NCBI GenBank assembly: GCA_963780185.1
Contig: CAWABA010000006.1
Location: 640,001-704,000 of the forward strand
Source of the DNA: Candidatus Bathyarchaeota archaeon
GTDB taxonomy: Archaea > Thermoproteota > Bathyarchaeia > Bathyarchaeales > Bathycorpusculaceae
DNA length: 64,000 nt
Reading direction: 5' to 3'
Shown: positions 10,229 to 23,323 of the stretch, piece after piece
Numbering within the stretch: position 1 is the first letter of the stretch
Layout: each line of letters starts with the position of its first letter
The notes under the pieces: model-generated
Told to the model about the DNA's origin: nothing
The model's input: the letters and a program-made list of their open reading frames with translations, nothing else
Database searches by the model: none
Position numbers and translations under genes: made by a program

Positions 10229-10271
10229 ATTTCCCTGATTTACAAGGATGTTTAAGGGCAATCAAATCAAT

Positions 10272-10673
10272 TTAAATTAATTCGAGCATTTTTTGAACGG
10301 TGACTATCTTGATTCCTCTGAAATCGTGCAGCGCCAAAAGATGGCTATCTCCACTTACAATCATGTCGGCGTTCGCGTCATAAGCGGTTTCAATAATCAT
10401 ATCGTCTTTAGGATCTGCTTTAACTGCCTCGAGCTTTGACGTTACTCTTACAAATTCGGAAGACCCTTTCAGCGTGAGTATAATCATGTTGATTTCTTCT
10501 TTGCCTATCTTGAATTCTGATCGACTCAGCACGCTTTCAAGTTCTTGCAAAATTAAGTCAGAGATAATGATAGAAAATCGGTTCGCCATTCCTCTTCGTA
10601 AAAGCTCTCTTGATCTACCGTTAGAAATTGTGGCGCTCACTAGAACGTTAGTGTCAAGAACAACCCTGAGCAT
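10272..10673 (-). CDS. PIN-domain toxin (VapC-like)
   Basis: VVLDTNVLVSA, DPKDDMIIETA, IVSGDSHLL. Confidence 0.9.
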   Translation of the reverse strand: MLRVVLDTNVLVSATISNGRSRELLRRGMANRFSIIISDLILQELESVLSRSEFKIGKEEINMIILTLKGSSEFVRVTSKLEAVKADPKDDMIIETAYDANADMIVSGDSHLLALHDFRGIKIVTVQKMLELI

Positions 10674-10686
10674 TTGATCATCCTAA

Positions 10687-10959
10687 TTATTTGCGGTAAT
10701 GCTCTTTCCTAACTTCTGACACTATTTCCTGGATTTCTTCCTCTGAAATGTTCAGATGTTTTTTGTCCATCATTTCAAAGATTTTTTCCCACTCTTTTTT
10801 CATGTCGGGCAGCTCCAGCTTTTTGAGAATGATGGTGTCGCCTTTGCCGTAGACGAGGAACTTGTTTTTCGGTTTTATTTTAAGCTCTTTTCGTATGGAC
10901 TGTGGGATGACTACTTGGCCTTTTTCGCTGATTGTTGTAACTTGTGGCTCTTCTGACAT
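10687..10959 (-). CDS. AbrB/MazE-family antitoxin
   Basis: ISEKGQVVIPQSIRKEL; directly upstream of the PIN gene. Confidence 0.9.
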   Translation of the reverse strand: MSEEPQVTTISEKGQVVIPQSIRKELKIKPKNKFLVYGKGDTIILKKLELPDMKKEWEKIFEMMDKKHLNISEEEIQEIVSEVRKEHYRK

Positions 10960-11024
10960 TTAGCATCAGTAAGAATAGTTTACTTTCACACTATTAATAA
11001 GTTGCGAAAAGAATCCGAGTTTTC

Positions 11025-11255
11025 ACTTTCAGTTACCTCTCCACTGTTTGGAAGTGTCTTTTCTGCAGTTGGCTTATTAGGGAAAGTAGCCAAATCTGCT
11101 CTTCTGCTATGTAAAACGAGGCGTTTAGTATGTTAAAAAGCATCAATTCAACATGCAAACTCACGCAGTCAACTTCTATGTTGAACCATGTTGAATCATA
11201 TTTGAAGCATATTAGAAGCATCTAGTTGACCGAGGGGTAGCTGTTGCATTCAAAC
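11025..11255 (+). repeat. 231-bp inverted repeat, left copy (partner 17188-17418)
   Basis: Reverse complement aligns without gaps to 17188-17418; 11102-11226 is identical to 17217-17341; about 22 mismatches overall by hand count. Confidence 0.95.
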
Positions 11256-11288
11256 GCCAACGGGCGCGAGGGCGCTTTGAATCTTAAA

Positions 11289-12107
11289 TTATGGAGCGAT
11301 TTTTATTGATGTCATTGTTAGTGAGCCTGCGACTGGTTTGTCGTTGAAGAACGTTATTATCTCGTTTTTTTCTTTCAGCGCCAAGGCGTAGAGCAGGGGC
11401 AGATAATGTTCGGGCGTGGGTATAGCCAAGTTGAACGCGGTGCCTTGGGAGCGATAATTAATTAGCTGCTCATGCTCGCCGTTTAGGATATGTTTCTTCA
11501 TTTTCTCGTTGGCTTCAAGAGCCCAATCGTACCCGTACCCTGCCATGTCCATGTTCTCCCAGTCAACCAGTCCCAGATTATGCACCATGTTCCCGCTTCC
11601 AACAATCAACACGCCCTGCCTGCGAAGCGACGAAAGCTGCCTAGCCAGCGAGTAATGAAATTCCGCGTCTTTGAAGTGATCCAGGCTAAGCTGCACAATT
11701 GGGACATCGGCGTCGGGGTAAAAATGTTTCAGCACGATCCAGCAGCCGTGATCGAGACCCCACTCGTAATCCAGCTTTACGTCGGCTTTTTTGACGGTGT
11801 CCGCGACTTCTTTGGCAATGGCTAGACTGCCTGGTGCGGGGTATTGCACGTTGCAGAGTTCTTGTGGGAACCCGTAGAAGTCATGGATGGTTTTTGGTTG
11901 ATCCATCGCGGTTACAGCGGTGCCGCGTGTTTCCCAATGAGCCGACACACACAGCACTGCGGTAGGCTTGGGAATCGTCGCCGCAGCCTCCCTGAAGCCC
12001 TCTACAAACTCGTTTTCTTCGATGGCGTTCATGGGGCTGCCGTGACCTACAAACAGCACAGGCATCGGCTTTTCGCCTTTTGAGCCGCTGGTTTTTTCAT
12101 TTGCCAT
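11289..12107 (-). CDS. ygiD: 4,5-DOPA extradiol dioxygenase family protein (YgiD/LigB class)
   Basis: FVGHGSPMNA, VSAHWET, TIHDFYGFP, GLDHG, GSGNMVHNL, PTPEHYLPL. Confidence 0.9.
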   Translation of the reverse strand: MANEKTSGSKGEKPMPVLFVGHGSPMNAIEENEFVEGFREAAATIPKPTAVLCVSAHWETRGTAVTAMDQPKTIHDFYGFPQELCNVQYPAPGSLAIAKEVADTVKKADVKLDYEWGLDHGCWIVLKHFYPDADVPIVQLSLDHFKDAEFHYSLARQLSSLRRQGVLIVGSGNMVHNLGLVDWENMDMAGYGYDWALEANEKMKKHILNGEHEQLINYRSQGTAFNLAIPTPEHYLPLLYALALKEKNEIITFFNDKPVAGSLTMTSIKIAP

Positions 12108-12329
12108 TCTGTTAGCCGATAGATACAGGCGGAGAATGTTTCAATAAACTTTTCTTTAGCAAGATGTAACAAGCCAAATTGGACAGACGCGTCACGGTTT
12201 TTGCGTCTATTTGGTTCATCTAGATGTCCCTATTTGGATCCTATAGAAAACCGTCGGGGGGCTGGGTACGAAAAAATAAAAAGCTGCCCGTGGAAAAACC
12301 AGCCCGAAAAAACAAGCCAGCCCTTTTCT

Positions 12330-12569
12330 TCAGCTTTTTGCCGAGGTTTTGGAGGTTGCCATTTCGGCGAAGTCGTAGCGTAGGAGTCGGTGTTTGCATT
12401 TGGTGTTTTTGCAGCCGTAGAGGAATAGGTTGGGGTTGCCGTGGTTGACGGTTAGGGCTTGGGTGGTGGATTTGCAGTTGGCGCAGGGTGCGGCGCGGAC
12501 TTGATCGTTTGTTATGTAGCCTTGGAGGAGCCTGACGCTCCATGGTTTATCCTTAAAAGAAGTCAACAC
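12330..12569 (-). CDS. small zinc-ribbon-like hypothetical protein
   Basis: CANC...CKNTKC; GAGGTGA RBS-like sequence upstream on the minus strand. Confidence 0.55.
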   Translation of the reverse strand: MLTSFKDKPWSVRLLQGYITNDQVRAAPCANCKSTTQALTVNHGNPNLFLYGCKNTKCKHRLLRYDFAEMATSKTSAKS

Positions 12570-12882
12570 AAAAAATCACCTCAGCAAAACGGGGTTGCCA
12601 CGTGTGGGGACCGCCAAATCCAGCCAACACCATATGTTTAGACAAATAAATCGGTTTGTGACTGTCAAATCACAGCAACGCCCAACAAACCACGCGCCGA
12701 AGAGAAACCAAAGCATGCCTTCTCAAAAACCAAACCCAAACCCGCCAAACCCAAAACCCAAAAACCAGCAAAAACAAACTTTTCCTCCAGCTTCGGCGTC
12801 CTGATTCTGGATACTGACGGCGATTTCATAAGTTAGTTAAACACCGTCAACCAACAAGTCAGCGTAATATGGAGGAAAAAAA

Positions 12883-13062
12883 ATGAAAAATCTTGAAGAA
12901 AAAGACCGAAAACAGTTAGAAGCCAAAATGGCAAACGCCTTTCAAGAAAATATTCGTCAATTGTCAACAGAATTGCGTGAAATATTGCTAGATGACATGG
13001 TTACAGCATTCGAAAATAGACTAAAAGTGTTAAACCGCATAGGCAAAGAACCCCAAAACTAA
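12883..13062 (+). CDS. 59-aa helical hypothetical protein (below ORF-track cutoff)
   Basis: GGAGG RBS then MKNLEEKDRKQLEAKMANAFQENIRQLSTELREILLDDMVTAFENRLKVLNRIGKEPQN*. Confidence 0.7.
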   Translation: MKNLEEKDRKQLEAKMANAFQENIRQLSTELREILLDDMVTAFENRLKVLNRIGKEPQN

Positions 13063-13148
13063 CGCCGACAATGGACACCAATATTGATCCTCAATACATA
13101 AATGATTTATATATAAACCGATTACTAACTAAAAAAAGAGGAGTATAA

Positions 13149-13442
13149 GTGCGTCGATCAAAACTCGAAATGTATGTAGACATCCTATCAGTACTCGCCC
13201 ACAGAGGACCACTAAAACTGACACACGTAATGTACAAAGCAAACGTCAACTGCAGCGTCCTCAAAGAATACCTCGACTTCCTCATAAAACAAGGCCTAGT
13301 AGAAGAACGCACCGCAGGCAAACACCGACTCGTCTACGCAGTAACACAACGAGGCATAACAGTACTGAAATACTTCAAAGAACTAAAACAAGTCCTACCA
13401 ATAGTAGAGGAAGCCCGAAACCAAACACCAATCCCCTACTAA
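13149..13442 (+). CDS. winged helix-turn-helix protein (archaeal RRSKLE type)
   Basis: MRRSKLEMYVDIL...LTHVMYKANVN...YLDFLIKQGLV...YAVTQRG. Confidence 0.85.
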   Translation: MRRSKLEMYVDILSVLAHRGPLKLTHVMYKANVNCSVLKEYLDFLIKQGLVEERTAGKHRLVYAVTQRGITVLKYFKELKQVLPIVEEARNQTPIPY

Positions 13443-13613
13443 ACCTCACCACCCAATTTACCTCAATTCCAGCGAATCGTTTAATTTTCAATCAATTGTT
13501 TAATACTGAAAACATTGTTTTTTTTATTTGCTGTTTTGCGGTTGTGACTTAGTTGTTTGAAATATGTACTTCTGTTTCGTAATACTTAATAAACACTTAA
13601 GGGAACTGTAGAT

Positions 13614-14021
13614 GTGCAAAACAAGTCAGGGGGTCTTGGTATTAAAGAGCAAATGACGACCAAAGGGCCGATAGCCATTCTTGAGAAGATTGAGGAGAGT
13701 CTTGAGAGGTTGAATGAGAAGATGGAGGTTATTATTGAGATTCAGAAGAGTGGTGGTGATGGTGGGCGTGGGTCTGTTGTGTTGCCTGATGCGTCTTTGG
13801 ATGTTATGACGCTTTTGTCTATGCCGGATCATTTGCGTAAGACTGCGATGACGATTTGTCGTTGTGGTCGTGCGACTGCTGAGGAGATTTCTGTGTCTAC
13901 TTGTCGTGCGCGTGCGGTTGAGAGTGCGTATCTTAATCAGTTGGTGCTTATGGGGTATCTCAAGAAGGAGCGTAAGGGTCGGAAGGCTTATTTTTTTGTT
14001 GATGTTGAGGGGAGGAGTTGA
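13614..14021 (+). CDS. coiled-coil + winged HTH protein coupled to MinD/ParA
   Basis: LLSMPDHLRKTAM...ATAEEIS...RARAVESAYLNQLV.MGYLKKERKGRKAYF; stop overlaps the next start. Confidence 0.8.
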   Translation: MQNKSGGLGIKEQMTTKGPIAILEKIEESLERLNEKMEVIIEIQKSGGDGGRGSVVLPDASLDVMTLLSMPDHLRKTAMTICRCGRATAEEISVSTCRARAVESAYLNQLVLMGYLKKERKGRKAYFFVDVEGRS

Positions 14022-14806
14022 TGGGTTTGAGTAGGGTTATTGCTGTTCATTCGTATAAGGGTGGGACGGGTAAGACGTTGTTGTCGGTGAATTTGGCGGC
14101 GACGCTTGCGAAGGCAGGTAGAAAAGTCTGTGTTTTTGACCTTGACTTTCGTGCGCCAAGTCTCTTCGCTATCCTTAACGCTGAATCCGCCGGGCACTGG
14201 TTTAACGATTACCTCAACAACACTGCTGACATCGGCTCAGTTATGGTGGATTTAAGCGGACGCATCTCGGGCGGAGGCAAATTTTATGCTGCTTTGGCTA
14301 ATCCGGCGACGGAGGCGATCCGTGACATGTCATCGAAGGATCGGAAATGGGAAATGCGCGCGCTGGGCCGCCTGCTTGCGTTGAAGGAAACGTTGCTTGC
14401 CAGCCAAAAATTCGATTACCTGTTCTTCGACACGAGTCCAGGCTTGCAGTATTCGTCGATAAACGCGATTGTCGCGGCAGACTTTGTGATTGTGGCGACC
14501 ACAGGCGACCGCTCCGACGTGGACGGAACCAAACGCATGCTTGCCGAACTGTATAACCTGTTTGAGAAGAAGACGGGGTTGGTTCTGAACAAAGTGCTTG
14601 ATGCATCTGCCACCGCCAAGAAAGCGGAGATGGCTGCAAAAATCAAAGACGCCTACCAAGTGCCCCTGCTCGGCTTAGTGCCCTGCTTCTGCGAAGTTCT
14701 CCGCGCCGAAGGCAACTTCATATTCGCCGAAGACAAACCCAACCACCCATTCACCAAAATCCTCACGGAAATGGCCAAAAAAATAGAAACCCACGAACTA
14801 GAATAA
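14018..14806 (+). CDS. MinD/ParA family ATPase
   Basis: Deviant Walker A KGGTGKT, DLDFRAPSL, FDTSPG, VLNK. Confidence 0.9.
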   Translation: MMGLSRVIAVHSYKGGTGKTLLSVNLAATLAKAGRKVCVFDLDFRAPSLFAILNAESAGHWFNDYLNNTADIGSVMVDLSGRISGGGKFYAALANPATEAIRDMSSKDRKWEMRALGRLLALKETLLASQKFDYLFFDTSPGLQYSSINAIVAADFVIVATTGDRSDVDGTKRMLAELYNLFEKKTGLVLNKVLDASATAKKAEMAAKIKDAYQVPLLGLVPCFCEVLRAEGNFIFAEDKPNHPFTKILTEMAKKIETHELE

Positions 14807-14897
14807 CCCAACCCACACCCACCTTTCTTTAGGCATCCAACACTTCCACTGCCTTTCACGTGTACCCAGCCGACCACCCAACGTTTTCCTTAACTGC

Positions 14898-15164
14898 CTA
14901 CGCAAAGACCCGCATTTCACCCGGCTTCGTTTTAGACCCAGAAATCAACAACGACCCATTGTCTTCATCCAAAACAAAACCATGTTTCCTCACAAGCGCC
15001 TGCACATCCGTAAGGTTCCTTCCGTCAAGAAAATCAACATTTATCTTCAGCTCAAAATCCTTCCGAGAAACCTTATTCGGCGACAACGAAATGCTGCTTA
15101 CAAAAGCGTCTGGCATACACTTGCAAATCTCTTTGAAAATCTTAACAGCCTCGCGCCTACGCAT
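14898..15164 (-). CDS. hypothetical protein (88 aa)
   Basis: MRRREAVKIFKEIC... from ATG at 15164; the longer upstream extension in the ORF track looks non-coding. Confidence 0.65.
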   Translation of the reverse strand: MRRREAVKIFKEICKCMPDAFVSSISLSPNKVSRKDFELKINVDFLDGRNLTDVQALVRKHGFVLDEDNGSLLISGSKTKPGEMRVFA

Positions 15165-15451
15165 GAAGCACACACGCAAATCACAAAGTATACAGCGACA
15201 GCTTAAGACAATTACTGACAAGCAAAAGTCAAAAAACACACGCGGGAACCTAAGCGTCAACATTCTTTTTGACAGGGCGTAATGGAAATTTTGCCTGAAA
15301 GAGAAATCGACGTACTTACTGGACAAAGTTAACTCATAGATGAACAATTGGCTGTCTCTGCATGCGCCATTTGCCACTTTTGTGGCAGACGTTTGGTTGA
15401 CTTCAGGGATAACTTCTATGCTATTCTGCCATCCAAGCGTCAACAAGCCTC

Positions 15452-16921
15452 TTAAAGAATGAAGGCTCCTACACCCGGCGGCGCCGCGCTCCCAGCAGCC
15501 TTACACGCCAGCGCCAACGCCATCAACTGGTCATCATGCTTCCCAATCGGATGCCAAAACTTTAGGTGAATCCGCTCCTGAGCCGTCCTCGGCTGCAAAT
15601 ACGCATACTCCTGCTCGTTAAGCTGCACAACCAGCGCCTTGTCGTCTCCAGCAATTTTGAGGCGCTTCTTCTCCATGAAGAGTTTGAGCTGGTTTAGCAT
15701 GTTTTCTTTTTCTGCGTCCGTGAAGAAGACGCCTTCAACCGAAGGAATGCTGATGTTGTTGAGTTCATCCACGATGGCGTCACCTATCCCGCCCTTATCA
15801 ACGTTTAGCCGCTCAAAATGGAAAACCTGCTCTGCCCGAGCCACGTAGCCGATGACCTCGGGGTAGCTGGTTCCCAGCGGAAACTGCCGCTTGTGGACAA
15901 GCCTTACGTCGCCGTTGTAGCTTTTCTGAACCACGGCAAGCACGCTAAAATCCATCTGTTTGCCAAGGTCTAAGCCCGCGTAGCAGGGTCCGAGGAGCTT
16001 CTGTTCGGGCTTGAGTTTCTCGATGTCTTCCACGTAAGCTTTGGCTGAATCTGGGTTGCCCAGCTCGGGATCAACACAGCCCACAATCAAGTCCATCGGG
16101 AAAAACGTATGCGTCGCCTCAACCCACAACCCCTCAACCTCACGCTGCCACTCCTCATGAGTCATAACCTCCTTCCACTCGTCAAGTTGGGCGGGGCTTA
16201 CCAGCGGGCTTTGGTAGCTGGCATAGTGGTGTACGCTGTAGCGTTTGGTGTCCAAAAACGCCTTGCGGAAAACATGGTCAGAACCCATCGGCGTCCCACT
16301 CATAACCAAGCTTGCGCCGGGTTTGGTGAGCATCATCATTATCTCGCTGGTTATCATTTCGCCTGGAACGATTGATGCCTCGTCAATGAAGACGTAGTCG
16401 GGGTGGTAGCCTCTGAGCCTATCTTTAGAGCATGGAAGAGCAACAATCCTCCCGCCCAAAGGCCGCTTCAGCCTTATTTGAGTGCGGGTTGTTCCAGGCT
16501 TCAAAACCATTTCCCTAAGCAACGGGTTACCATGGATAGTTGAGTAGCAGTAATCAAACATAATCATCGATTGCCGCTGAGTGCTGCTAATGATAAGGCT
16601 CTCTATCTTCGGCTTCGTGTATAAGAGCCAAAGGTTTTTTCTGCTAAAAACAAGGCTTTTACCCCAACCTCTCCCGCAAACAGCCACCTGCCTCGGGCTA
16701 CTATCCCGAAGGAGTTTCTGATGCTCAGGCGCGTTGATTAGCCATTTGTCGCCGCACATCAAAATGGCGAAGAAAACAGGGTCAGCGACAAGTTTAGATG
16801 CTACCTCTTTATGGGAAAGCAACTCTTTTAGGGCAGCTGGCTTTTCCAGCAACCTCTCGCAAATGGACGCCGCAAACGTTGGGTCGCTTGTTACCTGTGA
16901 TATGAAAGCCGTCTCTTCCAA
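15452..16921 (-). CDS. terminase large subunit-like protein (ATPase + RNase H-like nuclease)
   Basis: Walker A VCGRGWGKS, LRG then Walker B VFIDEA, motif III SGTP, nuclease AGLDLG..DFS, VDKGGIG, HDDQLMALALA. Confidence 0.9.
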   Translation of the reverse strand: MEETAFISQVTSDPTFAASICERLLEKPAALKELLSHKEVASKLVADPVFFAILMCGDKWLINAPEHQKLLRDSSPRQVAVCGRGWGKSLVFSRKNLWLLYTKPKIESLIISSTQRQSMIMFDYCYSTIHGNPLLREMVLKPGTTRTQIRLKRPLGGRIVALPCSKDRLRGYHPDYVFIDEASIVPGEMITSEIMMMLTKPGASLVMSGTPMGSDHVFRKAFLDTKRYSVHHYASYQSPLVSPAQLDEWKEVMTHEEWQREVEGLWVEATHTFFPMDLIVGCVDPELGNPDSAKAYVEDIEKLKPEQKLLGPCYAGLDLGKQMDFSVLAVVQKSYNGDVRLVHKRQFPLGTSYPEVIGYVARAEQVFHFERLNVDKGGIGDAIVDELNNISIPSVEGVFFTDAEKENMLNQLKLFMEKKRLKIAGDDKALVVQLNEQEYAYLQPRTAQERIHLKFWHPIGKHDDQLMALALACKAAGSAAPPGVGAFIL

Positions 16922-17199
16922 GTCTTATAGTCCCTTCTGATTAACCTGCGCGCCTGAGGAGTAACGTCTCGGATAAAGTCGCCGAGAGTCGAATCGCTGA
17001 ACTCTGATTCTAGCCCTTTCTGATTTATCAACTTGTTCAAAAGGCTCGCATGATAGGCAATAGCATTTGCAACCCGCGTCTTCTCCTCTATGGAAAGCTC
17101 TTTCTTCTTTAGAGTCCTCTTCAATTCACGAAGAATCTCCCACTCAAGACTGATTAGTCTATCCTGATTAGGTGGCGGTCGCCTTGTGTTTGAATGCAA
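16891..17199 (-). CDS. small helical protein overlapping the terminase gene (candidate TerS)
   Basis: 102 aa, basic and helical, GGAGGT RBS, 31-nt overlap with terL; TerS role inferred from position only. Confidence 0.6.
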   Translation of the reverse strand: MHSNTRRPPPNQDRLISLEWEILRELKRTLKKKELSIEEKTRVANAIAYHASLLNKLINQKGLESEFSDSTLGDFIRDVTPQARRLIRRDYKTWKRRLSYHR

Positions 17200-17418
17200 C
17201 GTCTACCTCCCGGTCTACTAGATGCTTCTAATATGCTTCAAATATGATTCAACATGGTTCAACATAGAAGTTGACTGCGTGAGTTTGCATGTTGAATTGA
17301 TGCTTTTTAACATACTAAACGCCTCGTTTTACATAGCAGAAATGTCGAGTCGGTTGTTTTCCCTAATAAGCCGACTACAGAAAAGACATACCCAACCAGT
17401 GGAGGGATAACTGAAAGT
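17188..17418 (-). repeat. 231-bp inverted repeat, right copy; contains promoter-like region, RBS and first 4 codons of the candidate terS
   Basis: Aligns to 11025-11255; TATA-like TTAAAAA at 17304-17310 (minus strand). Confidence 0.95.
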
Positions 17419-17566
17419 AAGCTATCTTATTTTTTGAACCGCACACCTTTTTTTACTACAGGGTCTGTAGTGCTACAGGGTGTTTAGTAAATGCCGAAAA
17501 AACTTTTTGTTCTAGTCCTGATTCAATAGCAAACTTTATTTCCAGAAATAAGAGAATGAGACGGCT

Positions 17567-20392
17567 ATGGACAAGAACTTCGCTTTGGAAAAAGTCAAAG
17601 CCCTCACCGAAAAATATCAAGAAGCTGTGAAAGAGGGAAGGATCGCAAAGTACAATGAGGAAATGACTAAGAAGGATTTCATTCTTCCCTTGTTTGAGGC
17701 TCTCGGCTGGAAAACCACAGATTCAAGAGAAGTAACAGCCGAAGAGAAAATATCCAAGAAGAGAGTTGATTACGGTTTCAGGATTAACGATATTCCAAAA
17801 TTCTTCCTAGAAGCTAAATCGTTCAAAGAAGACCTGGACGAGAGAAAATACATTGAACAAGCCATAAGTTATTCTTGGCATAAAGGATGCACTTGGGCAG
17901 TATTAACAAATTTTGAAAGCGTAAAAATCTTTAATGCCGAAGTCAAAACCGAACACCCCTAGATGAGTCAACTTAAACCAACACTCCATTGTAACGAGTT
18001 TTTGGATAAATTTGATGAACTTTCGCTTCTGTCAAGAGAAAGTTTCGAAAAAGAACTTTTAGATAAAGAGGCAGAGAAATGGGGCAAAAAAGCAAAGAAA
18101 ATGCCCATCGATAAGCAACTGTTGGCTGACTTTACGCATTTCCGAGATATTCTTTCCAGGAACATTACAAAGCTCAATGGAAATAAGCATTTGAGCGAAG
18201 AAGAATTGGATGAATCGGTTCAGAGAATCTTAGACAGGCTAATTTTTATTAGGAATTGTGAAGATCGGGAACTTGAGCCTAAGATTCTCATCTCGAATTA
18301 TAGAGAATGGGAAAGTAAAGGCAGAGGGCAACTAATCAATAGTCTAAGAGAAACATTTTCTCACTTTGACGATGAATACAACAGTAAGATATTTGCTAAG
18401 CGCTTATGTGATGACTTGGATGTAGACAATGAAGTTCTGCATGAGGTAATAGAAGGGTTATACCGCAACAAAGACAATGAACCTTATGATTTTGCAATAA
18501 TTGATGCGGATGTTCTTGGGACAATTTATGAACAGTATTTAGGACATATTCTAAGAAAGACGGAAAAAAGAGCAAAAGTGACTGAAAACCATGCTCATAG
18601 GAAGGAACAGGGCATCTATTATACCCCAACTTTCATTGTAAAATACATAGTAGATAAAACCTTAGGAGAATTATTAAAAAGTAAAAAAATAGATGTTGAG
18701 AAAATCAGGGTTCTAGACCCTGCTTGTGGGTCTGGAAGCTTTCTGATAAAAGCTTTTGATGTGCTGAATGATTATTACAAAGAACACGACGAGAACTATA
18801 AGCAAACTCGACTAGATTTGGAATCAGGTATCCTCTTTAAAACAAAAAGTAGAATCTTGCAGAATAACATCTTTGGAGCTGACTTAGATAAGCAGGCAGT
18901 TGAAATTGCACAGCTTAATCTGCTATTAAAAATAGCAGAAAAAGGGCATCGTCTCCCATTGTTGGAACAAAACATCAAAAAAGGTAACTCAATAGTTGAT
19001 GAGGAAAAGACAGCAGGTTCAGTTGCCTTTGATTGGAACCAAGAATTCAAAGCAATTATGGATGAAGGTGGCTTTGATGTCGTAATTGGGAACCCACCGT
19101 ATGTTCGGCAAGAGGAATTGACTGAAATAAAGCCATACCTTGAGGCAACCTACGAAACCTACCATGGAATGGCGGACTTGTTCGTATATTTCTTTGAAAA
19201 AGAATTGAAGATACTTAAAGAAAATGGTTACTTTGGCATGATTGTTTCTAACAAATGGCTTAGAGCAGGTTATGGACGGAATCTTAGAAAATTCTTATCA
19301 GAATTCTGGATTGAAGAATTAATTGATTTTGGAGATTTGCCAGTATTCCCTGATGCGACAATATACCCTTGCATAATTCTAATGAAGAAAATTAAGAAGC
19401 AAAATCCGAAAATAAGAATCTGTAAAATGCAAACGTTGGAATTTGGTTCTCTTGAGGCTTATGTAAAAGACAATTCCTATTCAATTAACCAACCCGACTT
19501 GAGCGAAAAAGAATGGAACATTCAGAATAAAGGGGGGAATGAGTTACTTAGGAAAATACGGAATACAGGGATTTTAATTGAAGAGTATGTTGGCTCCAAT
19601 GTGTATTACGGTATCAAGACAGGTCTAAATGAAGCATTTATTATTGATGCGAAAAAGAGAGATGAGTTAATACATGAAGATTCAAAAAATCAGGAAATTA
19701 TCAAACCAATCATTAGCGGGGCGGAACTAAAACGGTATTCAATTAGGTCAAAGAAAAACTACATACTTTTTGCAAGAAGAGGTGTGGATATATCCCAATA
19801 TCCGTCCATTTTAAAACATCTGGAACAATTCAAAAATCAATTAACTCCTAAAAGAAGCAGAGACCAAGAAATTGGGCGAAAGCCTGGTCATTATAAATGG
19901 TATGAAATGCAAGACCCCACTGATTATTATAAGAAATTTGAAGAACCAAAGATACTGTGGGGAAATCTTACAACAAGGTCATCATTCTCTCTTGATGAGG
20001 TAAGCGGATTTTATGTCAATAATCCCGCATGTATTTTGCCAACCAATTCTAGATACGTTCTTGGCATCTTAAATTCTAAGCTGATGTCCTATTTTCTGAA
20101 ATCTATCTGTGCAGAAAGGCAGGGTGGCTTCATTGAGCAGAAGCCCGTTTACGTTTCTCAAGTTCGAATTAAGAAACCGACTGAAGCGCAAGAAATTGGT
20201 TTAACCCTGCAAGTGGAAAAAATGCTTCAGCTTAATGAAAAGCTACTTGAGATTGGCGACAAATTAACAGATGAACGCGCAAAAATTGAAAACGAAATAA
20301 AGAAAACTGATTCGACAATTGACGATTATGTTTACGCGATTTACGGCATAACTGACGCAGAGAAGAAAATCATAGAAAGTAATTCACAGTAA
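17567..20392 (+). CDS. type IIG-like restriction-modification fusion (HsdR_N-type nuclease + N6-adenine MTase + TaqI_C-like TRD), interrupted by in-frame TAG at 17960-17962
   Basis: RVDY..FFLEAK nuclease; GIYYTP, LDPACGSGSF, IGNPPY; both ORFs are in one frame (CCC TAG ATG). Confidence 0.85.
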
Positions 20393-20420
20393 GAAAATTA
20401 CCTAATCGGATGGATAATCT

Positions 20421-20855
20421 GTGGATAAACGAGTCTTGAATTGGTTACTAGAAAACAAAGGCAAAGTCTTTCCCTCGCCTAGAGATGAGGCGTTTGGAAG
20501 CAATACCAAAGATTTTGAAATAAGCAGTATTACGCAAGGTCGGGTCTACATAAAATTTGGCGGAAATAAATACGAAGCTTTACCGTTAGTTTTCCCAATG
20601 TTTGACCGCATTTTGGACTACTTGGCGAAAAACAAAACTAGGGCAGTTCGTATTGGTGCAAAAATCATTCCGCCGTACGACAACGACTCTCTTGAAGGTG
20701 CCATTTGGAAAGAACCGTATCCAGTTGGCACTGTTCCATACAAGGCATCCCCGCATGTATGTGACATTTTGTGTTTAGCTGGTTTAATCAAGTACGTTTC
20801 TGCGATTAATCCGATGACAGGCAGACGAGTGCAAGCCGTCAAGCTCAGAGAGTGA
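20421..20855 (+). CDS. hypothetical protein in defence-like island
   Basis: 144-aa ORF with GTGA coupling to the next gene. Confidence 0.7.
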   Translation: MDKRVLNWLLENKGKVFPSPRDEAFGSNTKDFEISSITQGRVYIKFGGNKYEALPLVFPMFDRILDYLAKNKTRAVRIGAKIIPPYDNDSLEGAIWKEPYPVGTVPYKASPHVCDILCLAGLIKYVSAINPMTGRRVQAVKLRE

Positions 20856-21755
20856 GTGTCTTGGATATCAAAGTTGCAGACGAAGTTTGGATTGGTTGTG
20901 CATTTCTTCATAAAGAAAACCCTCAAGAACTCGGATTCTCAAACAGTCAAATCGTAGACCGCATAAGGCAGGAGAACATCTTTGGGTCAATTAGACCTGG
21001 AATCCAAATACACATCTCAACACACTGCGTCGCCAACACTCCGGCCCAACCCAACAAATGCCGCATGTTATACAAACTGCCCGATGGAAGAAAACGCCTT
21101 TTTAAAGAAACGGACGACTTTCACGAAAGTCGTCAAAATGGAAAAACAACTCCAAACACGGAAGATATCCCTAAGAAATACCTTTTCCTGATAGATTGGT
21201 ACGTGAGTGAATACAATAATGAGAGCAAGAGAACTGAAATTCCGCCCCCTCTTCCACAGCCGCCTATTCCTACCAAGATTATTTCGTTGAAAGAAAATCA
21301 ACTTCAAGAGTTTACTTACAAATGTCCGAAGCCAACAAAGTCTAGGTCCTGCAAAGATTGTGCGCTATTCTTAGGGGAAGATACCATAAAGAGGTCTCTT
21401 GAAGCCGCGCTATCAGCTGAAGGCTGGAAAGTAAAGACATCAATGGGCAGGAAACACGGCATAGACATAATCGCGACAGACAAACAAGACCATGTAATGC
21501 TCATAGAAGCAAAAGGTGAAGGCTCAAGAAATGCAATGCGAGTCAACTACTTTCTAATGGTTCTCGGTGAGTCTGCTACAAAAGATGGATTCATCAAACA
21601 AAATTTACGGGTTGGCGCTTCCTGCATACCGGCAGTATGCAAATCTTGTTATTAATTTGCCTGATTGGATAAAGCACCAATTGAAACTTAGAATTTATTT
21701 GGTTAAGCAACAAGAAAGCGGCGAATATCAGATCGGCTTGGTTGAATACAATTAA
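20852..21755 (+). CDS. unknown N-terminal domain fused to PD-(D/E)xK nuclease; +1 frameshift near 21571
   Basis: HGIDIIA...LIEAKGEGS; removing one T in GAG-T-CTG joins LGE to LLQKMD...YGLALP. Confidence 0.7.
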
Positions 21756-21889
21756 GCCAAGTTTGCGCGCAAAAACGGGTGGATTAGGTCAGTTTGAACC
21801 CCCGCCCGAATGGAGACGCCACTCCCAAAACCCATTTTTCTAAAGATTAAATAGATAATCCGTTCAATTGGTTGGTAATGGCGGGTTAA

Positions 21890-23167
21890 TTGGATAGAGA
21901 TTTTCTCGTAGATTACAAATACAGAGAGGATGAATACTATACCAGATTTGTTGAGGACATCTGCAACCGAAAGTTCGTCATCGGGAAAGATGAATCACCT
22001 TACAAGAATAGGTACGTAAACCTTCAAAGACCTGTTACAGAGTTGAACAGATCGAATGAAAACAAATTCAAGGAGACTATGTGGGCCCAGATTCCTTTCA
22101 GCGGCTCCTCAATTATTGCTTTGCCCGCCTTTTCTAAGGTTGATTTTGAGGAACAGTTCTTTGACACAAGAGATATACCCAAAATTGTAGATTTCATAAA
22201 GGAAACGGGAAGGCTTCAATTTGCCCTTCCAGATTACATATTAGATTATGAAGGGCTTGATTTCTTGGACCCGATATTTCTCGAACTAAAGCCTCCTGCA
22301 TATCATTTGACGCCTATGGGAGCATTTGCGTCGGACGAGGAAATACGAAATGCAATCAACGAGTTTACGACGGTTGCAGAAATCAACTTTACAAAGTTTT
22401 TGGATTTTCGCAAAGCAGAAGGAGTACCACTACGAAATCTCGTGTCTGCTTATGTAGGCGCTCAGATGACTTTTGTGACCCTTAAACTAACCAAAAATTC
22501 TCTCGCCAGAGAGGCTGAAAAGCTTTTGGTTGATGATCCAGTTCAAGCCATAAGGCTCTTGGCGCTTGCTAATATTTTTATTGAAATTCCTGCGTTTAAT
22601 TTGCTTGTAAATAGTTTTAATTTTCCAATGGATCGAATCAAAGAAGCAGAATTGTATCCTGTGAATGTTCACCCAAAAAACATTCAATTTGAACATGAGA
22701 TAGGGAAGTTCTTGCTAACAAAACTGACATATGCCCCTCAAGGTTTGGATGCATGCAAAGAAATAATGTATCGATATGACAAAAACGACCTGCGAAAAGT
22801 GCAAAAATCCTTGAATCAATCCATAGTAGAAAACAATCCTCAAGCTGTTAACTCAAGCGCCATCGAGTTATCAGAGATTCTCGGAAACGTTTGGGACGAC
22901 AAAACGATACCCCTAAGAATTAAAGGCTTGAAAATCGGTCTACCCCTTTCAATGGCCGCGATTGGAAGCGTTGCGGCTGGACCGATAGGCACAGCAAGCG
23001 GCTTGCTCGCTGGACTTGGATTTGATGTCTTAAACCAGATGATAGACCTGAAGACCGATGGACTATCGGAAAAACTTGCAAAAATTAAAACTAAAAGCTA
23101 TCAAGCAAACATTTACGATTTCAAGGCAAAATATAAAGACCGAATGGTCTTAGATCGCCCAACATAG
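21890..23167 (+). CDS. hypothetical protein with C-terminal glycine-rich hydrophobic hairpin
   Basis: 425-aa AT-rich ORF; GLPLSMAAIGSVAAGPIGTASGLLAGLG near the C-terminus. Confidence 0.75.
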   Translation: MDRDFLVDYKYREDEYYTRFVEDICNRKFVIGKDESPYKNRYVNLQRPVTELNRSNENKFKETMWAQIPFSGSSIIALPAFSKVDFEEQFFDTRDIPKIVDFIKETGRLQFALPDYILDYEGLDFLDPIFLELKPPAYHLTPMGAFASDEEIRNAINEFTTVAEINFTKFLDFRKAEGVPLRNLVSAYVGAQMTFVTLKLTKNSLAREAEKLLVDDPVQAIRLLALANIFIEIPAFNLLVNSFNFPMDRIKEAELYPVNVHPKNIQFEHEIGKFLLTKLTYAPQGLDACKEIMYRYDKNDLRKVQKSLNQSIVENNPQAVNSSAIELSEILGNVWDDKTIPLRIKGLKIGLPLSMAAIGSVAAGPIGTASGLLAGLGFDVLNQMIDLKTDGLSEKLAKIKTKSYQANIYDFKAKYKDRMVLDRPT

Positions 23168-23323
23168 CAACAGAGGATTTGGTCCAAAGAGTAGGAGAGG
23201 AAATTCACCCCCAATGCATCTGGAGATTTCAGCTGCGAGACACATCTTTTTAATTCTTGTTTGCGTTTGCTCCGTATGTTTTTTTAACTGGTTTTGCAAT
23301 TTATGGGTGGAGAGTTTGTTTGC

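What the first reader, a model, noticed from the sequence alone, without database searches (positions are those of the whole stretch)
11025..17418. 6.4-kb segment bounded by long inward-facing inverted repeats and carrying a capsid-less terminase module
Seen: 231-bp ungapped inverted repeats (~90% identical by hand count; 125-bp core 100% identical, outer 77 bp ~78%) enclose ygiD, small hypotheticals, two HTH genes, MinD/ParA, an intact TerL and a small overlapping partner. Each repeat comprises the upstream region, RBS and first four codons (MHSN) of the partner gene; the left copy dies after 21 codons (11244-11309). No portal, capsid, integrase, transposase or TSD is visible, and the outer neighbours are a TA pair and an R-M gene. 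Inference: (a) a satellite- or GTA-like unit whose ends are terminase recognition sites, (b) an invertible segment homogenised by recombination, or (c) a remnant of a second terminase cassette. I know of no described system with this architecture.
Basis: partly seen in the sequence, partly recalled or inferred. Interest (0 to 1): 0.85.

Follow-up and report, generated by a model that had tools for sequence, protein, structure and literature searches.

The report
Repeat-flanked orphan terminase in Bathyarchaeia
Two inverted copies of an upstream-region repeat, part of which is scattered through this archaeal genome, bracket a virus-derived DNA-packaging gene pair that related archaea also carry, with no capsid genes found nearby.

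Summary
The inverted repeat is real: 218 of 248 nt match, with a 125-nt mismatch-free core. It is not the end of a mobile element. Each arm is a copy of the upstream region of the small-partner/TerL operon. The inner ~150 nt of each arm belongs to a dispersed intergenic repeat family with 28 module hits in this Bathyarchaeia genome and matches in 11 of 81 genomes of the genus. That family does not track the terminase. Five related MAGs hold the same cluster beside the same host genes, and in four of them it is again bracketed by inverted repeat modules. The PIN-MazE flank sits at the opposite end in two of them, so the arms mark a recombination or rearrangement point and evolve in concert. No recombinase, integrase or target-site duplication was found. 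The more interesting result is the cargo. An intact TerL and a four-helix partner predicted to bind it co-occur in about 40 of 45 Bathyarchaeia loci. TerL dN/dS is 0.05-0.07. No structural genes were recognised within 10 kb, although one viral contig shows the pair beside tail genes. The readers' reading (b) is favoured; (a) and (c) are not supported. Function is unknown, and a retained or exapted packaging operon is plausible.

The parts
10272..10959 (-). Left flank: PIN toxin (10272-10673) and MazE/AbrB-type antitoxin (10687-10959). It is contiguous with the left arm, as in relatives.
   Evidence: Pfam PIN_3 E 2.3e-19 and MazE_antitoxin E 4.4e-7. Window 10264-11265 aligns collinearly at 76% with G019:C9 32429-33440, where the arm runs straight into the small partner gene.
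11008..11255 (+). Left arm of the inverted repeat, a copy of upstream region 'U' of the small-partner gene. The outer part (11008-11127) is found only around this cluster. The inner part is module A of the dispersed repeat.
   Evidence: 218/248 matches; identical at 11102-11226. The outer part is conserved upstream of the partner gene in L051, L053 and L089.
11128..11276 (+). Module A plus the start of the linker of the dispersed intergenic repeat. It includes the SD-like GGGAGG and TTGCATTCAAAC.
   Evidence: nhmmer model positions 3-152, E 2.8e-29.
11289..12107 (-). LigB-family extradiol dioxygenase (ygiD-like). It lies inside a ~915-nt insert that splits a dispersed-repeat copy in its linker.
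   Evidence: Pfam LigB E 9.5e-23. Module A ends at 11276 and module B resumes at 12192.
12192..12279 (+). Module B of the same dispersed repeat, in the same orientation as the left arm.
   Evidence: nhmmer model positions 146-233, E 1.1e-23. 93.6% identical to the module upstream of the partner gene in L082.
12883..13062 (+). 59-aa ORF, the first gene of the conserved four-gene block.
   Evidence: No family hit. Conserved at 63-93% aa in L052, L053, L054, L082 and L089.
13149..13442 (+). Winged-helix DNA-binding protein (HTH_45).
   Evidence: Pfam HTH_45 E 6.9e-17. 94-99% aa identity in five relatives.
13614..14021 (+). 135-aa protein, probably a second winged-helix regulator. It overlaps the ParA start by 4 nt.
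   Evidence: Weak SoFic-like_C wHTH hit, E 0.0069. Atlas neighbours are Bathyarchaeota clusters with TrmB/MarR/IclR-type HTH, score 0.98 (a lead only).
14018..14806 (+). ParA/MinD-type deviant Walker ATPase.
   Evidence: Pfam AAA_31 E 4.1e-20, CbiA, ParA; PHROG 164 ParA-like partition protein E 1.7e-28.
14898..15446 (-). 182-aa ORF directly downstream of TerL, function unknown.
   Evidence: No hit in Pfam, PHROGs, PADLOC or the Atlas. Partial homologues of 50-55% in L053, L054, L082 and L089.
15452..16921 (-). Intact terminase large subunit (ATPase + RNase H-like nuclease).
   Evidence: Walker A CGRGWGKS, Walker B VFIDE, and nuclease D318, D375/D381 and H462-D463-D464 are invariant in 33 sequences. 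The best known virus is Halogranum tailed virus 1 at 26.7%.
16891..17199 (-). 102-aa small partner in the TerS position, a four-helix protein that overlaps TerL by 31 nt.
   Evidence: Family present in 41 of 45 loci. Model pLDDT 85.5. Predicted to bind TerL: score 0.73 against a best control of 0.00. 282 database clusters, all 'hypothetical', none with a Pfam domain.
17188..17435 (-). Right arm of the inverted repeat: the upstream region, RBS and first codons of the partner gene. Module A lies at 17179-17315.
17567..20392 (+). Right flank: a type IIG restriction-modification gene in two ORFs (131 + 809 aa) separated by one in-frame TAG. It is part of a low-GC island (about 17.0-23.2 kb) that is absent from the closest relative.
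   Evidence: Pfam HSDR_N, Eco57I, N6_Mtase, TaqI_C, MmeI domains. PADLOC REase_MTase_IIG E 1.6e-19. TAG at 17960-17962. GC 0.36-0.42. Absent in L082.

Best explanation
The 6.4-kb segment is a resident chromosomal gene cluster of a Bathyarchaeia lineage, not a transposon, satellite or programmed invertible element. It holds two convergent units. One is a virus-derived packaging operon: a four-helix protein in the TerS position, an intact TerL, and a 182-aa ORF. The other is a partition-like cassette: a 59-aa ORF, a winged-helix protein, a second probable winged-helix protein, and ParA. The two arms are copies of the ~250-bp region upstream of the partner gene ('U'). The inner ~150 bp of U is module A of a modular, lineage-restricted intergenic repeat family that is scattered over the genome. 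The left arm is a repeat copy whose linker was later split by a ~0.9-kb insert carrying the LigB gene. The right arm is fused to the partner gene and supplies its Shine-Dalgarno-like sequence and TTG start. Shown: the repeat; its dispersed nature; conservation of the cluster and its chromosomal site; concerted evolution of the arms; the different attachment of the PIN-MazE-U block in relatives. Inferred: homologous recombination or gene conversion between the inverted copies produced the 125-nt identical tract and at least one rearrangement (an inversion, or an inverted duplication of U with its MazE flank). Such an exchange has no obvious regulatory consequence, because the genes lie inside and both arms point inward. 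The packaging operon is kept by selection in the host chromosome with no capsid genes found in cis. Its cellular role is unknown.
For: - Repeat: 248 nt, 88%; 218/248; identical at 11102-11226.
- Dispersed family: blastn finds the core at 11 other places on 7 contigs. An nhmmer model gives 28 hits: 9 near-full, 5 with module A only (including both arms), and 14 with module B or partial. By my crude ORF calling, 24 of 28 have no overlapping ORF of 90 aa or more. No terminase lies near the 11 other copies.
- Lineage restriction, and no link to TerL: the element is in 11 of 81 genomes of the genus. G010, G012, G013 and G023 have a TerL orthologue at 68-78% but no element. G003 and G016 have the element but only 33-40% TerL relatives.
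- Same site in relatives: L082 has the cluster between the same ferredoxin/BcrAD genes (87.6% nt) and the same MobA-like/TFS genes (86-88% nt), in the same orientation. It lacks PIN-MazE, LigB and the restriction-modification island. L052, L053, L054 and L089 also lie beside the same right-hand host genes.
- Inverted repeat modules bracket the cluster in four of the five relatives that hold the ParA block: L053 A/A, L054 B/A,A, L082 B/B,B, L052 B/B. The window has 3 module hits, all within 6.4 kb, against 28 per 2.75 Mb genome-wide.
- Concerted evolution: the window arms match at 208/231, against 145/234 and 141/234 to the orthologous G019 arm. The two G019 arms match at 160/217.
- Rearrangement: in G019 (L053, also metagenome contig L145) and G047 (L054, also L146 and L143), MazE abuts the partner-gene end. 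In the window it abuts the other arm.
- No recombinase: Pfam on 30 window ORFs between 3.3 and 28.4 kb gave none.
- Viral origin of the pair: IMG/VR contig L095 has the partner plus TerL (73%) directly after tail-tube, HK97-gp10-like and YQBQ-like genes. It has the same gene order as 46 further viral contigs with 30-41% TerL.
- Retention: the partner family is in 41 and TerL in 40 of 45 loci. TerL dN/dS is 0.047 and 0.066 against L051 and L052. Catalytic residues are invariant in 33 sequences.
- Predicted partner-TerL binding: score 0.73, best of 3 controls 0.00. That mark was reached by 58 of 80 solved complexes and 2 of 110 mismatched pairs. The runs agree in at least 84% of contacts and the partner pLDDT is at least 77. 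My own alignments were used, so the counts hold only roughly.
Against: - The history is not resolved. Relative to the right-hand host genes the cluster has the same orientation in the window, L082, L089, G019 and G047. A single arm-by-arm inversion therefore does not convert the G019 state into the window state. Two inversions, or an inverted duplication or acquisition of the PIN-MazE-U block, are needed.
- The MazE region is 91% nt identical to G047 while the rest of the cluster is about 74%. This could mean the block was transferred rather than flipped.
- The left arm as a whole (outer and inner parts) is closer than the right arm to the native upstream region of L051, the closest partner orthologue. 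A simple crossover model does not predict that.
- I have no read-level support for the assembly across the arms or for either orientation. The identical core (125 nt) is short, but a mis-oriented assembly cannot be excluded by me.
- The strong local enrichment of repeat modules around this cluster in several genomes is not explained by 'just a dispersed repeat'.
- 'Capsid-less' rests on sequence searches that can miss divergent archaeal capsid and portal proteins.
- dS is saturated for most pairs.
Confidence: 0.6

Rival explanations
1. Exapted or parasitic packaging operon. The small-partner/TerL pair is functional with no capsid genes found in cis. It may act on infecting or resident tailed viruses, either as satellite-like hijacking of helper capsids or as interference with helper packaging, that is, defence. 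Alternatively it may act on host DNA. The fast-evolving partner would set the DNA or target specificity. This concerns what the cargo does and can coexist with the best explanation of the repeat.
For: TerL is under strong purifying selection with invariant catalytic residues. The cluster sits at a conserved chromosomal site in 5 relatives. The partner evolves much faster than TerL: dN 0.24-0.59 against 0.09-0.25. Partner alleles appear to be swapped: TerL is 85-88% identical but the partner only 47-48% in L082 and L052, and homology to L082 ends inside the TerL N-terminus at window 16783. Neighbours here are a toxin-antitoxin pair and a type IIG restriction-modification gene. The genome has two more intact solitary TerL genes, each with a small gene directly upstream; one of these pairs lies inside the ribosomal-protein/SecY operon. 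None of 26 conserved gene families of the related viral contigs (TerL itself excluded), apart from V1, V3, V7 and V20, has a homologue in the genome, and none has one in the 44 MAG loci.
Against: No PADLOC hit for TerL, the partner or the 182-aa ORF. No integrase, replication gene or att site. No expression data. Low dN/dS could partly reflect repeated recent capture from active viruses. Defence-island context is present in this genome only: L082 lacks both the toxin-antitoxin pair and the restriction-modification gene.
Confidence: 0.2
2. Satellite- or GTA-like mobile unit whose inverted ends are the sites that its own terminase recognises.
For: The arms evolve in concert. Inverted repeat modules bracket the cluster in several genomes. 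The arms lie directly upstream of the TerS-position gene, where pac sites often lie (recalled general knowledge). ParA and winged-helix genes suggest a former episome.
Against: The core is a dispersed repeat unlinked to terminases. The bracketing modules differ between relatives: A/A, B/A, B/B. The chromosomal site is the same in relatives. No integrase, replication gene or target-site duplication (bases read). No capsid or portal family in the genome with PF05065, PF04860 or PF05133 (genome 93% complete). No homologues of the structural families of related viral contigs.
Confidence: 0.07
3. Programmed invertible segment (phase variation or shufflon-like) driven by a site-specific recombinase.
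For: Long inward-facing inverted repeats with an identical core. The attachment of one flank differs between species.
Against: No recombinase among the 30 ORFs scanned between 3.3 and 28.4 kb. The arms are long and diverged rather than short crossover sites. The genes and their upstream regions lie inside or within the arms, so flipping would not switch expression. Four of six 15-20-kb loci with orthologous TerL have no inverted repeat of 40 nt or more.
Confidence: 0.05
4. Remnant of a second, inverted terminase cassette (PIN-MazE-U-partner-TerL) whose genes were deleted, leaving U and four codons.
For: The left arm with its MazE flank is collinear with the G019 and G047 arrangement in which U drives the partner gene. 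Over both its outer and inner parts, the left arm is closer to the native upstream region of L051.
Against: The four codons and the SD-like sequence belong to the repeat consensus. After them the left arm continues as the repeat's own linker and, 915 nt later, as module B. This is the structure of an ordinary repeat copy, not of a truncated gene. No trace of partner or TerL coding sequence lies to the right of 11255.
Confidence: 0.05
5. Assembly artefact: a false inverted duplication, or a mis-oriented internal segment.
For: The window comes from a MAG. I could not check spanning reads: only two low-share runs were found.
Against: The arms differ at 30 of 248 positions and are 5.9 kb apart, which is unlike a fold-back artefact. 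A comparable inverted pair flanks the same genes in MAG G019, whose record title carries a different isolate series from the other MAG titles listed. One contig of run X2 spans 16953-17221 without a difference, joining the partner gene to the inner, arm-specific part of the right arm (this run may be the source sample).
Confidence: 0.03

Closest known systems
TerS-TerL packaging operon of tailed archaeal viruses (Caudoviricetes), here the Bathyarchaeia-type viral contigs in IMG/VR
   Same: A small gene overlapping an intact TerL with Walker A/B and RNase H-like nuclease residues. The same pair sits after tail genes in viral contig L095, with the gene order of 46 other viral contigs. The partner is predicted to bind TerL.
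   Different: Here and in the 44 MAG loci there is no portal, capsid or tail gene of the related viral families within 10 kb. The partner has no sequence or fold match to any known TerS. The cluster is inherited at a fixed chromosomal site.
Defective-prophage remnants and domesticated viral genes (for example gene transfer agents; recalled, not tested against a reference here)
   Same: Viral genes kept in a host chromosome without a complete virus, under purifying selection.
   Different: GTAs keep the whole head-tail module. Here only the packaging enzyme pair is kept, and no structural cluster was found elsewhere in the genome.
Phage satellites that carry their own packaging genes (PICI / cfPICI type; recalled)
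   Same: A small island with packaging genes, DNA-binding regulators and no full virion module, in a defence-rich neighbourhood.
   Different: No integrase, replication module, att site or variable insertion site for the whole unit. Satellites of archaeal viruses of this kind are not described in the papers my searches listed.
Recombination between inverted dispersed repeats (IS copies, REP/BIME-like or MITE-like elements, rRNA operons) causing chromosomal inversions and concerted evolution (textbook knowledge, recalled)
   Same: Inverted copies of a multi-copy intergenic repeat at the borders of a rearranged block. An identical conversion tract lies inside otherwise diverged arms.
   Different: The repeat family has no terminal inverted repeats or target duplications that I could see, no Rfam match and only a weak consensus fold, so it is not a recognised MITE or RNA family. 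The arms also contain about 120 nt that occur only around this cluster.
Site-specific invertible segments (Hin/Gin/Cin, shufflons; recalled)
   Same: Inward-facing inverted repeats around a few kilobases of genes.
   Different: No invertase. The arms are long and imperfect. There is no promoter-outside or gene-outside logic that would make inversion a switch.

Membership tests
Terminase large subunit (TerL) | Sequence membership in TerL profile families | tested here: met
   Pfam Terminase_6N at 24.5 bits (cut-off 22). PHROG 2 'terminase large subunit' E 2.9e-33, plus 6 other TerL PHROGs. tblastn to annotated TerL of 20 phage records, best 26.7% over 87% of the query.
Terminase large subunit (TerL) | ATPase Walker A and Walker B motifs and RNase H-like nuclease acidic residues present | tested here: met
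   CGRGWGKS, VFIDE, and D318, D375/D381, HDD462-464. These align to the Thermus phage TerL nuclease and ATPase structures 5m1f, 5tge and 4zni. They are invariant in 33 aligned sequences. The motif names are recalled.
Terminase large subunit (TerL) | Encoded with portal and capsid genes of a virus or provirus | tested here: not met
   No such gene in the segment. No gene family other than the partner, TerL and a 115-140-aa RHH-like protein is shared by more than 7 of 45 loci. No homologue of 26 viral-contig families in the 44 MAG loci.
Terminase small subunit (TerS) | Small gene immediately upstream of, or overlapping, TerL and conserved with it | tested here: met
   31-nt overlap. Family in 41 of 45 loci, directly before TerL. 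It occupies the slot of the V1/V27 small genes in viral contigs.
Terminase small subunit (TerS) | Binds TerL | tested here: inconclusive
   Prediction only: score 0.73 against a best control of 0.00 (3 controls). The mark was reached by 58 of 80 solved complexes and 2 of 110 mismatched pairs. Contacts agree at 84% or more and partner pLDDT is 77 or more. The interface is TerL 222-268 with partner 9-49. The model supports binding but does not show it.
Terminase small subunit (TerS) | Sequence or fold similarity to known TerS; DNA-binding HTH plus an oligomeric ring | tested here: not met
   No Pfam or PHROG hit. PDB profile search: best hit E 0.14, to ferritin. Foldseek: best E 0.58 (PDB) and 0.19 (BFVD), with no TerS among the top rows. 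Oligomer state and DNA binding were not tested.
Phage satellite (PICI/P4-like) | Integrase or excisionase and att sites; variable presence with an empty site | tested here: not met
   No integrase family hit. No flanking direct repeat. The closest relative, L082, has the cluster at the same site.
Gene transfer agent | Head-tail structural gene cluster in the same genome | tested here: not met
   PF05065, PF04860 and PF05133: 0 matches in the genome (93.5% complete), with positive controls ringing. Only a probable decaying provirus with a split TerL and tape-measure-like ORFs on C5 and a remnant on C12. Divergent archaeal capsids could be missed.
Site-specific invertible segment | Adjacent invertase or recombinase gene | tested here: not met
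   None among the 30 ORFs scanned with Pfam between 3.3 and 28.4 kb.
Site-specific invertible segment | Both orientations present in one population | not testable with these tools
   Only two runs with word shares of 0.10 and 0.05 were found. Their contigs do not span an arm with both flanks.
MITE / composite transposon | Terminal inverted repeats plus target-site duplication; transposase | tested here: not met
   For the 6.4-kb unit: inverted arms yes, target duplication no, transposase no. For the 233-nt dispersed element: no terminal inverted repeats or target duplication seen on 9 copies.
ParABS-type partition cassette | Deviant Walker ParA with small DNA-binding partner genes in one operon | tested here: met
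   ParA hits. An HTH_45 protein and a probable winged-helix 135-aa ORF lie upstream, the latter overlapping ParA. A centromere site was not identified.

The most novel reading that the evidence does not exclude
Bathyarchaeia keep packaging operons with no capsid genes found in cis (a fast-evolving, swappable four-helix TerL-binding subunit plus an intact TerL) as vertically inherited, selected chromosomal genes. That would be an exapted terminase system. It would either hijack or sabotage the capsids of infecting tailed viruses, or act on host DNA. The U-type and dispersed repeat modules that are concentrated around it would serve as its recognition sites.
Probability: 0.15. Interest if true: 0.8.

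Novelty: new variant of a known kind. Interest (0 to 1): 0.45.

Why it matters
The inverted repeat itself turns out to be ordinary genome mechanics: inverted copies of a dispersed repeat that recombine and rearrange a locus. What deserves follow-up is the cargo. A terminase is normally useless without a procapsid. Here an intact TerL and a new partner family are conserved across dozens of Bathyarchaeia genomes. They are inherited at a fixed chromosomal site in one clade and are under strong purifying selection. The partner subunit evolves several times faster than TerL. The genome carries two more solitary TerL genes, each with a small gene directly upstream. If these are functional, they would be a first case of a retained or exapted terminase in an uncultivated, globally abundant archaeal class. 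Possible roles include satellite-like parasitism of archaeal tailed viruses, interference with virus packaging, or a cellular DNA translocase-nuclease. Practically, a TerL hit in these MAGs should not be read as evidence of a provirus.

Tried and rejected
- **Reads.** The look-up of sequencing runs found only two runs, with word shares of 0.10 and 0.05. Laid at 85% likeness, they gave short low-depth contigs, no joints, and nothing spanning an arm with both flanks. This says nothing about orientation, ends or coverage steps.
- **Metagenome scan.** A scan with a conserved 32-mer of the MazE gene gave 5 contigs. The two that reach past MazE on the arm side (L145, L146) show the G019-type or G047-type arrangement. 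None was a near-identical strain of the window.
- **RNA.** No Rfam match in window 9-20 kb at E up to 1. In six loci with repeat copies the only match was an unrelated tRNA. RNAalifold on 8 full copies gave weak consensus folds of -18 and -14 kcal/mol. I therefore dropped the 'small RNA gene' idea. A first script for this timed out.
- **Promoter-cassette idea for the repeat.** Only 4 of 8 full copies have a co-oriented gene downstream, which is chance level. A peptide reading is also rejected, because the frame after 'MHSN' is not conserved across the variable linker.
- **MITE idea.** No terminal inverted repeats or target duplications.
- **Defence-system idea for the cargo.** PADLOC gave only weak ParA or winged-helix hits and the flanking type IIG restriction-modification gene.
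- **Fold of the partner.** No significant match in PDB or BFVD.
- **Atlas.** Nothing usable for the 182-aa ORF.
- **PHROG scans.** Scans of candidate provirus remnants on C12 and C5 were mostly blank.
- **TAG recoding** as an explanation for the split restriction-modification gene: no suppressor tRNA was found by ARAGORN, and TAG ends 239 of 970 long ORFs. Rejected.
- **Conservation of the TerL copy in the ribosomal operon.** Its 69-83% orthologues in G019 and G003 are not next to SecY. G047 has a different 43% paralogue 1.7 kb after SecY.
- **Literature.** Four searches returned no listed title or abstract describing solitary or exapted terminases in archaea: 'Bathyarchaeia + terminase' (18 papers held the terms, 15 listed), 'terminase large subunit + archaea + domesticated' (6), 'terminase + archaea + capsid-less' (6), and six phrases for orphan or stand-alone terminase (14). 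I saw search listings only, except for two papers. For PMC11697101 and bioRxiv 10.1101/2023.08.24.554615 I read the passages returned by 'find'. Those describe complete proviruses or viruses with terminase, portal and capsid. Supplementary tables were not consulted and may list such loci.

Full report
**1.

- The repeat finder reports one long inverted pair, 11008-11255 and 17188-17435: 248 nt, 88% complementary, 5932 nt between the arms.
There are no mismatches between 11102 and 11226 (125 nt), and 17 mismatches in the 77 nt outside it.
- The inner end of each arm carries an SD-like GGGAGG/GGAGG and TTG CAT TCA AAC. On the right this is the start of a 102-aa ORF that overlaps TerL by 31 nt. 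On the left it stops after 21 codons.
- Gene content and flanks are as described:
  - LigB-type dioxygenase
  - an HTH_45 protein
  - a 135-aa ORF
  - a ParA-type ATPase
  - a 182-aa ORF
  - TerL and its small partner
  - PIN + MazE on the left
  - a type IIG restriction-modification gene on the right

**2. The core of the arms is a dispersed repeat**

- A search of the window's own genome (2.75 Mb, 13 contigs, 93.5% complete) found the inner 80-150 nt of the arm at many other places. blastn gave 11 further copies on seven contigs at 74-89% identity.
- Aligning them showed a modular element of about 233 nt. It has module A, a variable hairpin-plus-T-run linker, and module B, with further similarity beyond B in some copies.
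- An nhmmer model built from 8 full copies finds 28 hits in the genome: 9 near-full, 5 with module A only (the two arms among them), and 14 with module B or partial.
- 24 of the 28 have no overlapping ORF of 90 aa or more by my crude ORF calling.
- None of the other copies is near a terminase.
- The 'MHSN' codons are part of the consensus: 8 of 13 aligned copies carry them, and the 12-mer occurs 9 times in the genome, 8 of them in repeat copies. The reading frame after them is not conserved.
- I found no Rfam match, only a weak consensus fold, no terminal inverted repeats or target duplications, and no orientation bias toward downstream genes (4 of 8).
- I therefore call it a dispersed intergenic repeat of unknown function.
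- Within the genus it is present in 11 of 81 sampled genomes and does not track this TerL. G010, G012, G013 and G023 have the orthologue but not the repeat. G003 and G016 have the repeat but not the orthologue.

**3. The arms are more than a repeat copy**

- The outer ~120 nt (11008-11127) occurs elsewhere in the genome only as one 60-nt partial match.
- It is conserved upstream of the partner gene in L051, L053 (G019) and L089, and partly in the far arm of G019.
- The unit that is duplicated is therefore 'U', the native upstream region of the partner-TerL operon, which has module A built into it.
- The left arm continues as an ordinary repeat copy. Module A runs into the linker up to 11276, and module B resumes at 12192. 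The two are separated by a 915-nt insert that holds the LigB gene on the other strand.

**4. Organism and relatives**

- Ribosomal proteins S4e, L32e and L5e mark an archaeon.
- Titles of related records name Candidatus Bathyarchaeia/Bathyarchaeota MAGs.
- 44 loci with TerL at 47-88% identity (41 of them at 62% or more) were fetched with 10-kb flanks.
- Clustering ORFs of these plus the window (45 loci) showed which families are widely shared. They are the small partner (41 loci), TerL (40), and a 115-140-aa RHH-like protein, usually convergent behind TerL (23, not in the window). Every other family is in 7 loci or fewer.
- The ParA block (59-aa ORF, HTH_45, 135-aa ORF, ParA) accompanies TerL only in the window and in L052, L053, L054, L082 and L089.

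**5. The cluster is resident, not mobile**

- L082, the closest relative, has the cluster in the same orientation between the same host genes. On one side are the ferredoxin/BcrAD genes (87.6% nt over 4.6 kb). On the other are the MobA-like, TFS, thiamine-binding and GDT1 genes (86-88% nt). The cluster itself is 84% identical.
- L082 lacks PIN-MazE, the left arm, LigB and the low-GC restriction-modification island (GC 0.36-0.42).
- L052, L053, L054 and L089 also have the cluster beside the same right-hand host genes, with local rearrangements; L052 needs at least two inversions.
- Synteny in this genus is otherwise scrambled: one 68-kb G019 contig maps to more than ten places in the window's genome.

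**6. Repeat modules bracket the cluster repeatedly, and the arms evolve in concert**

- Inverted modules lie upstream of the partner gene and beyond the ParA block in four relatives: L053 (A/A), L054 (B/A,A), L082 (B/B,B) and L052 (B/B).
- The G019 pair is reported as 63 nt at 86% without gaps but aligns over about 200 nt with gaps.
- Four of six orthologous loci searched have no inverted repeat of 40 nt or more.
- Arm similarities:

| Comparison | Matches |
|---|---|
| Window left arm vs right arm | 208/231 |
| Window left arm vs orthologous G019 arm | 145/234 |
| Window right arm vs orthologous G019 arm | 141/234 |
| The two G019 arms | 160/217 |

- Greater similarity within a genome than between orthologues, plus a 125-nt perfect tract inside 78-90% arms, is what gene conversion or crossover between the arms would give.

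**7. A rearrangement at the arms, with an unresolved path**

- In G019 (also metagenome contig L145) and G047 (also L146 and L143), PIN-MazE is joined through U to the partner gene. In the window the same block (76% nt, collinear over 1037 nt with G019) is joined to the other end, next to LigB.
- Relative to that flank the cluster is inverted. Relative to the right-hand host genes it is not.
- One arm-by-arm crossover alone is therefore not enough. Either two inversions occurred, or there was an inverted duplication or acquisition of PIN-MazE-U.
- The MazE region is 91% identical to G047 while the cluster is about 74%. The left arm resembles the native U of L051 more than the right arm does. 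Both points leave the acquisition route open.
- No recombinase gene is present among the 30 ORFs scanned from 3.3 to 28.4 kb.
- Both arms point inward and the genes lie inside, so a flip would not switch expression.

**8. The cargo**

- TerL is intact. It has Walker A (CGRGWGKS), Walker B (VFIDE) and three nuclease acidic sites that align to Thermus phage TerL structures. All are invariant in 33 sequences.
- Known viruses are at most 27% identical.
- dN/dS is 0.047 against L051 and 0.066 against L052; dS is saturated for the other pairs.
- The partner is a four-helix protein with pLDDT 85.5. It has no Pfam, PHROG, PDB-sequence or fold match. Its 282 database clusters are all 'hypothetical', and the named ones are from Bathyarchaeia.
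- A complex prediction supports binding to TerL residues 222-268. The score is 0.73 against a best control of 0.00 among 3 controls. The mark was reached by 58 of 80 solved complexes and 2 of 110 mismatched pairs. Contact agreement is at least 84% and partner pLDDT at least 77. I used my own alignments.
- The partner evolves faster than TerL: dN 0.24-0.59 against 0.09-0.25. In L082 and L052 it is only 47-48% identical while TerL is 85-88%. Homology to L082 breaks inside the TerL N-terminus.

**9. Viral origin, but no structural genes found here**

- One IMG/VR contig (L095, 7 kb) has the partner and a 73% TerL directly after tail-tube, HK97-gp10-like and YQBQ-like genes.
- A profile search found 46 more viral contigs with 30-41% TerL. 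They share conserved gene orders in which a small gene precedes TerL. L095 fits this order.
- I searched 26 conserved families of these contigs (TerL itself excluded). Only four have homologues in the window's genome, and none has one in the 44 MAG loci:
  - V1, the small gene before the TerL paralogue on C5
  - V3 and V7, on C12
  - V20, also on C12, interrupted by an in-frame TGA
- PF05065, PF04860 and PF05133 found nothing in the genome, with positive controls ringing.
- Divergent capsid or portal proteins could still be missed.

**10. Verdict**

- The repeat is explained by duplication of, and recombination between, inverted copies of an upstream region that contains a dispersed repeat. 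This is ordinary mechanics, and I give it about 0.6.
- Reading (a) meets its own refutation criterion. Reading (c) is unnecessary. Reading (b) is partly right, but without evidence of a programmed switch.
- The lasting point of interest is a selected terminase pair with no capsid genes found, present in Bathyarchaeia chromosomes. My four searches did not turn up a description of it in print. I saw listings only, plus passages of two papers, and I did not see supplements.

Noticed in passing
G000:C5:118610-120374 (locus L014 10610-12374, minus strand): A second intact TerL (39% identical to the window's) has an overlapping 145-aa small gene upstream; the small gene is 59% identical to the small gene preceding TerL in viral contigs. 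The pair sits on the opposite strand inside the ribosomal-protein operon, between the L18/L5e-side genes and SecY. Its 69-83% orthologues in G019 and G003 are not next to SecY. G047 has a different 43% TerL 1.7 kb after SecY.
   Followed up: partly
G000:C6:376774-378804 (locus L015 9774-11804): A third intact solitary TerL (40%) is preceded by a 196-aa gene with no Pfam match. It lies among housekeeping genes (methyltransferase, LysE, macro domain, NAD(P)H-hydrate dehydratase).
   Followed up: partly
window 17567-20392: The type IIG restriction-modification gene is in two ORFs (131-aa HSDR_N nuclease part, 809-aa methylase/TRD part). They are separated by a single in-frame TAG followed at once by ATG. 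A relative (L060) has a fused 1166-aa form. No suppressor tRNA was found, and TAG is a common stop here.
   Followed up: partly
window 17000-23200: A low-GC island (0.36-0.42 against about 0.47 for the genome) holds the restriction-modification gene and three ORFs without a Pfam match (20421-20855, 20852-21655, 21890-23167). The whole island is absent from the closest relative, L082.
   Followed up: partly
own genome, 28 sites (for example G000:C4:70957-71189, C6:84369-84600, C12:39254-39488): A modular ~233-nt intergenic repeat family (module A, a variable hairpin + T-run linker, module B, and a further shared stretch beyond B in some copies). It is present in 11 of 81 genomes of the genus and has internal CTATTTGG...CATCTAG sub-repeats. 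No Rfam match, no terminal inverted repeats or target duplication. Function unknown.
   Followed up: partly
window 11277-12191: The LigB (ygiD-like) gene lies in a 915-nt insert that splits a repeat copy between its hairpin and T-run. LigB homologues (38-48%) also lie within 1-3 kb of the TerL orthologues in L059 and L060.
   Followed up: no
G000:C6:740232-741001 (locus L017): A paralogue of the small partner (44%) stands without a TerL, directly followed on the same strand by a member of the RHH-like family. That family lies behind TerL in 23 of 45 loci and has 4 copies in this genome.
   Followed up: no
G000:C12:1-11661 (locus L096): A probable provirus remnant at a contig start. An 885-aa ORF and small ORFs are followed by homologues of the two small genes that precede TerS-TerL in viral contigs. 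About 3.6 kb later comes the gene that follows TerL there, interrupted by an in-frame TGA. The TerS-TerL slot is occupied by unrelated ORFs.
   Followed up: partly
G000:C5:145035-146443 and neighbours (locus L016): A TerL split into two ORFs (220 + 260 aa) is followed by a 472-aa ORF and tape-measure-like ORFs. This is probably a decaying head-tail provirus.
   Followed up: partly
loci L082 and L052 versus window 16783-17199: TerL is 85-88% identical but the small partner only 47-48%. Nucleotide homology to L082 ends inside the TerL N-terminus. This looks like allele replacement at the 5' end of the operon.
   Followed up: partly
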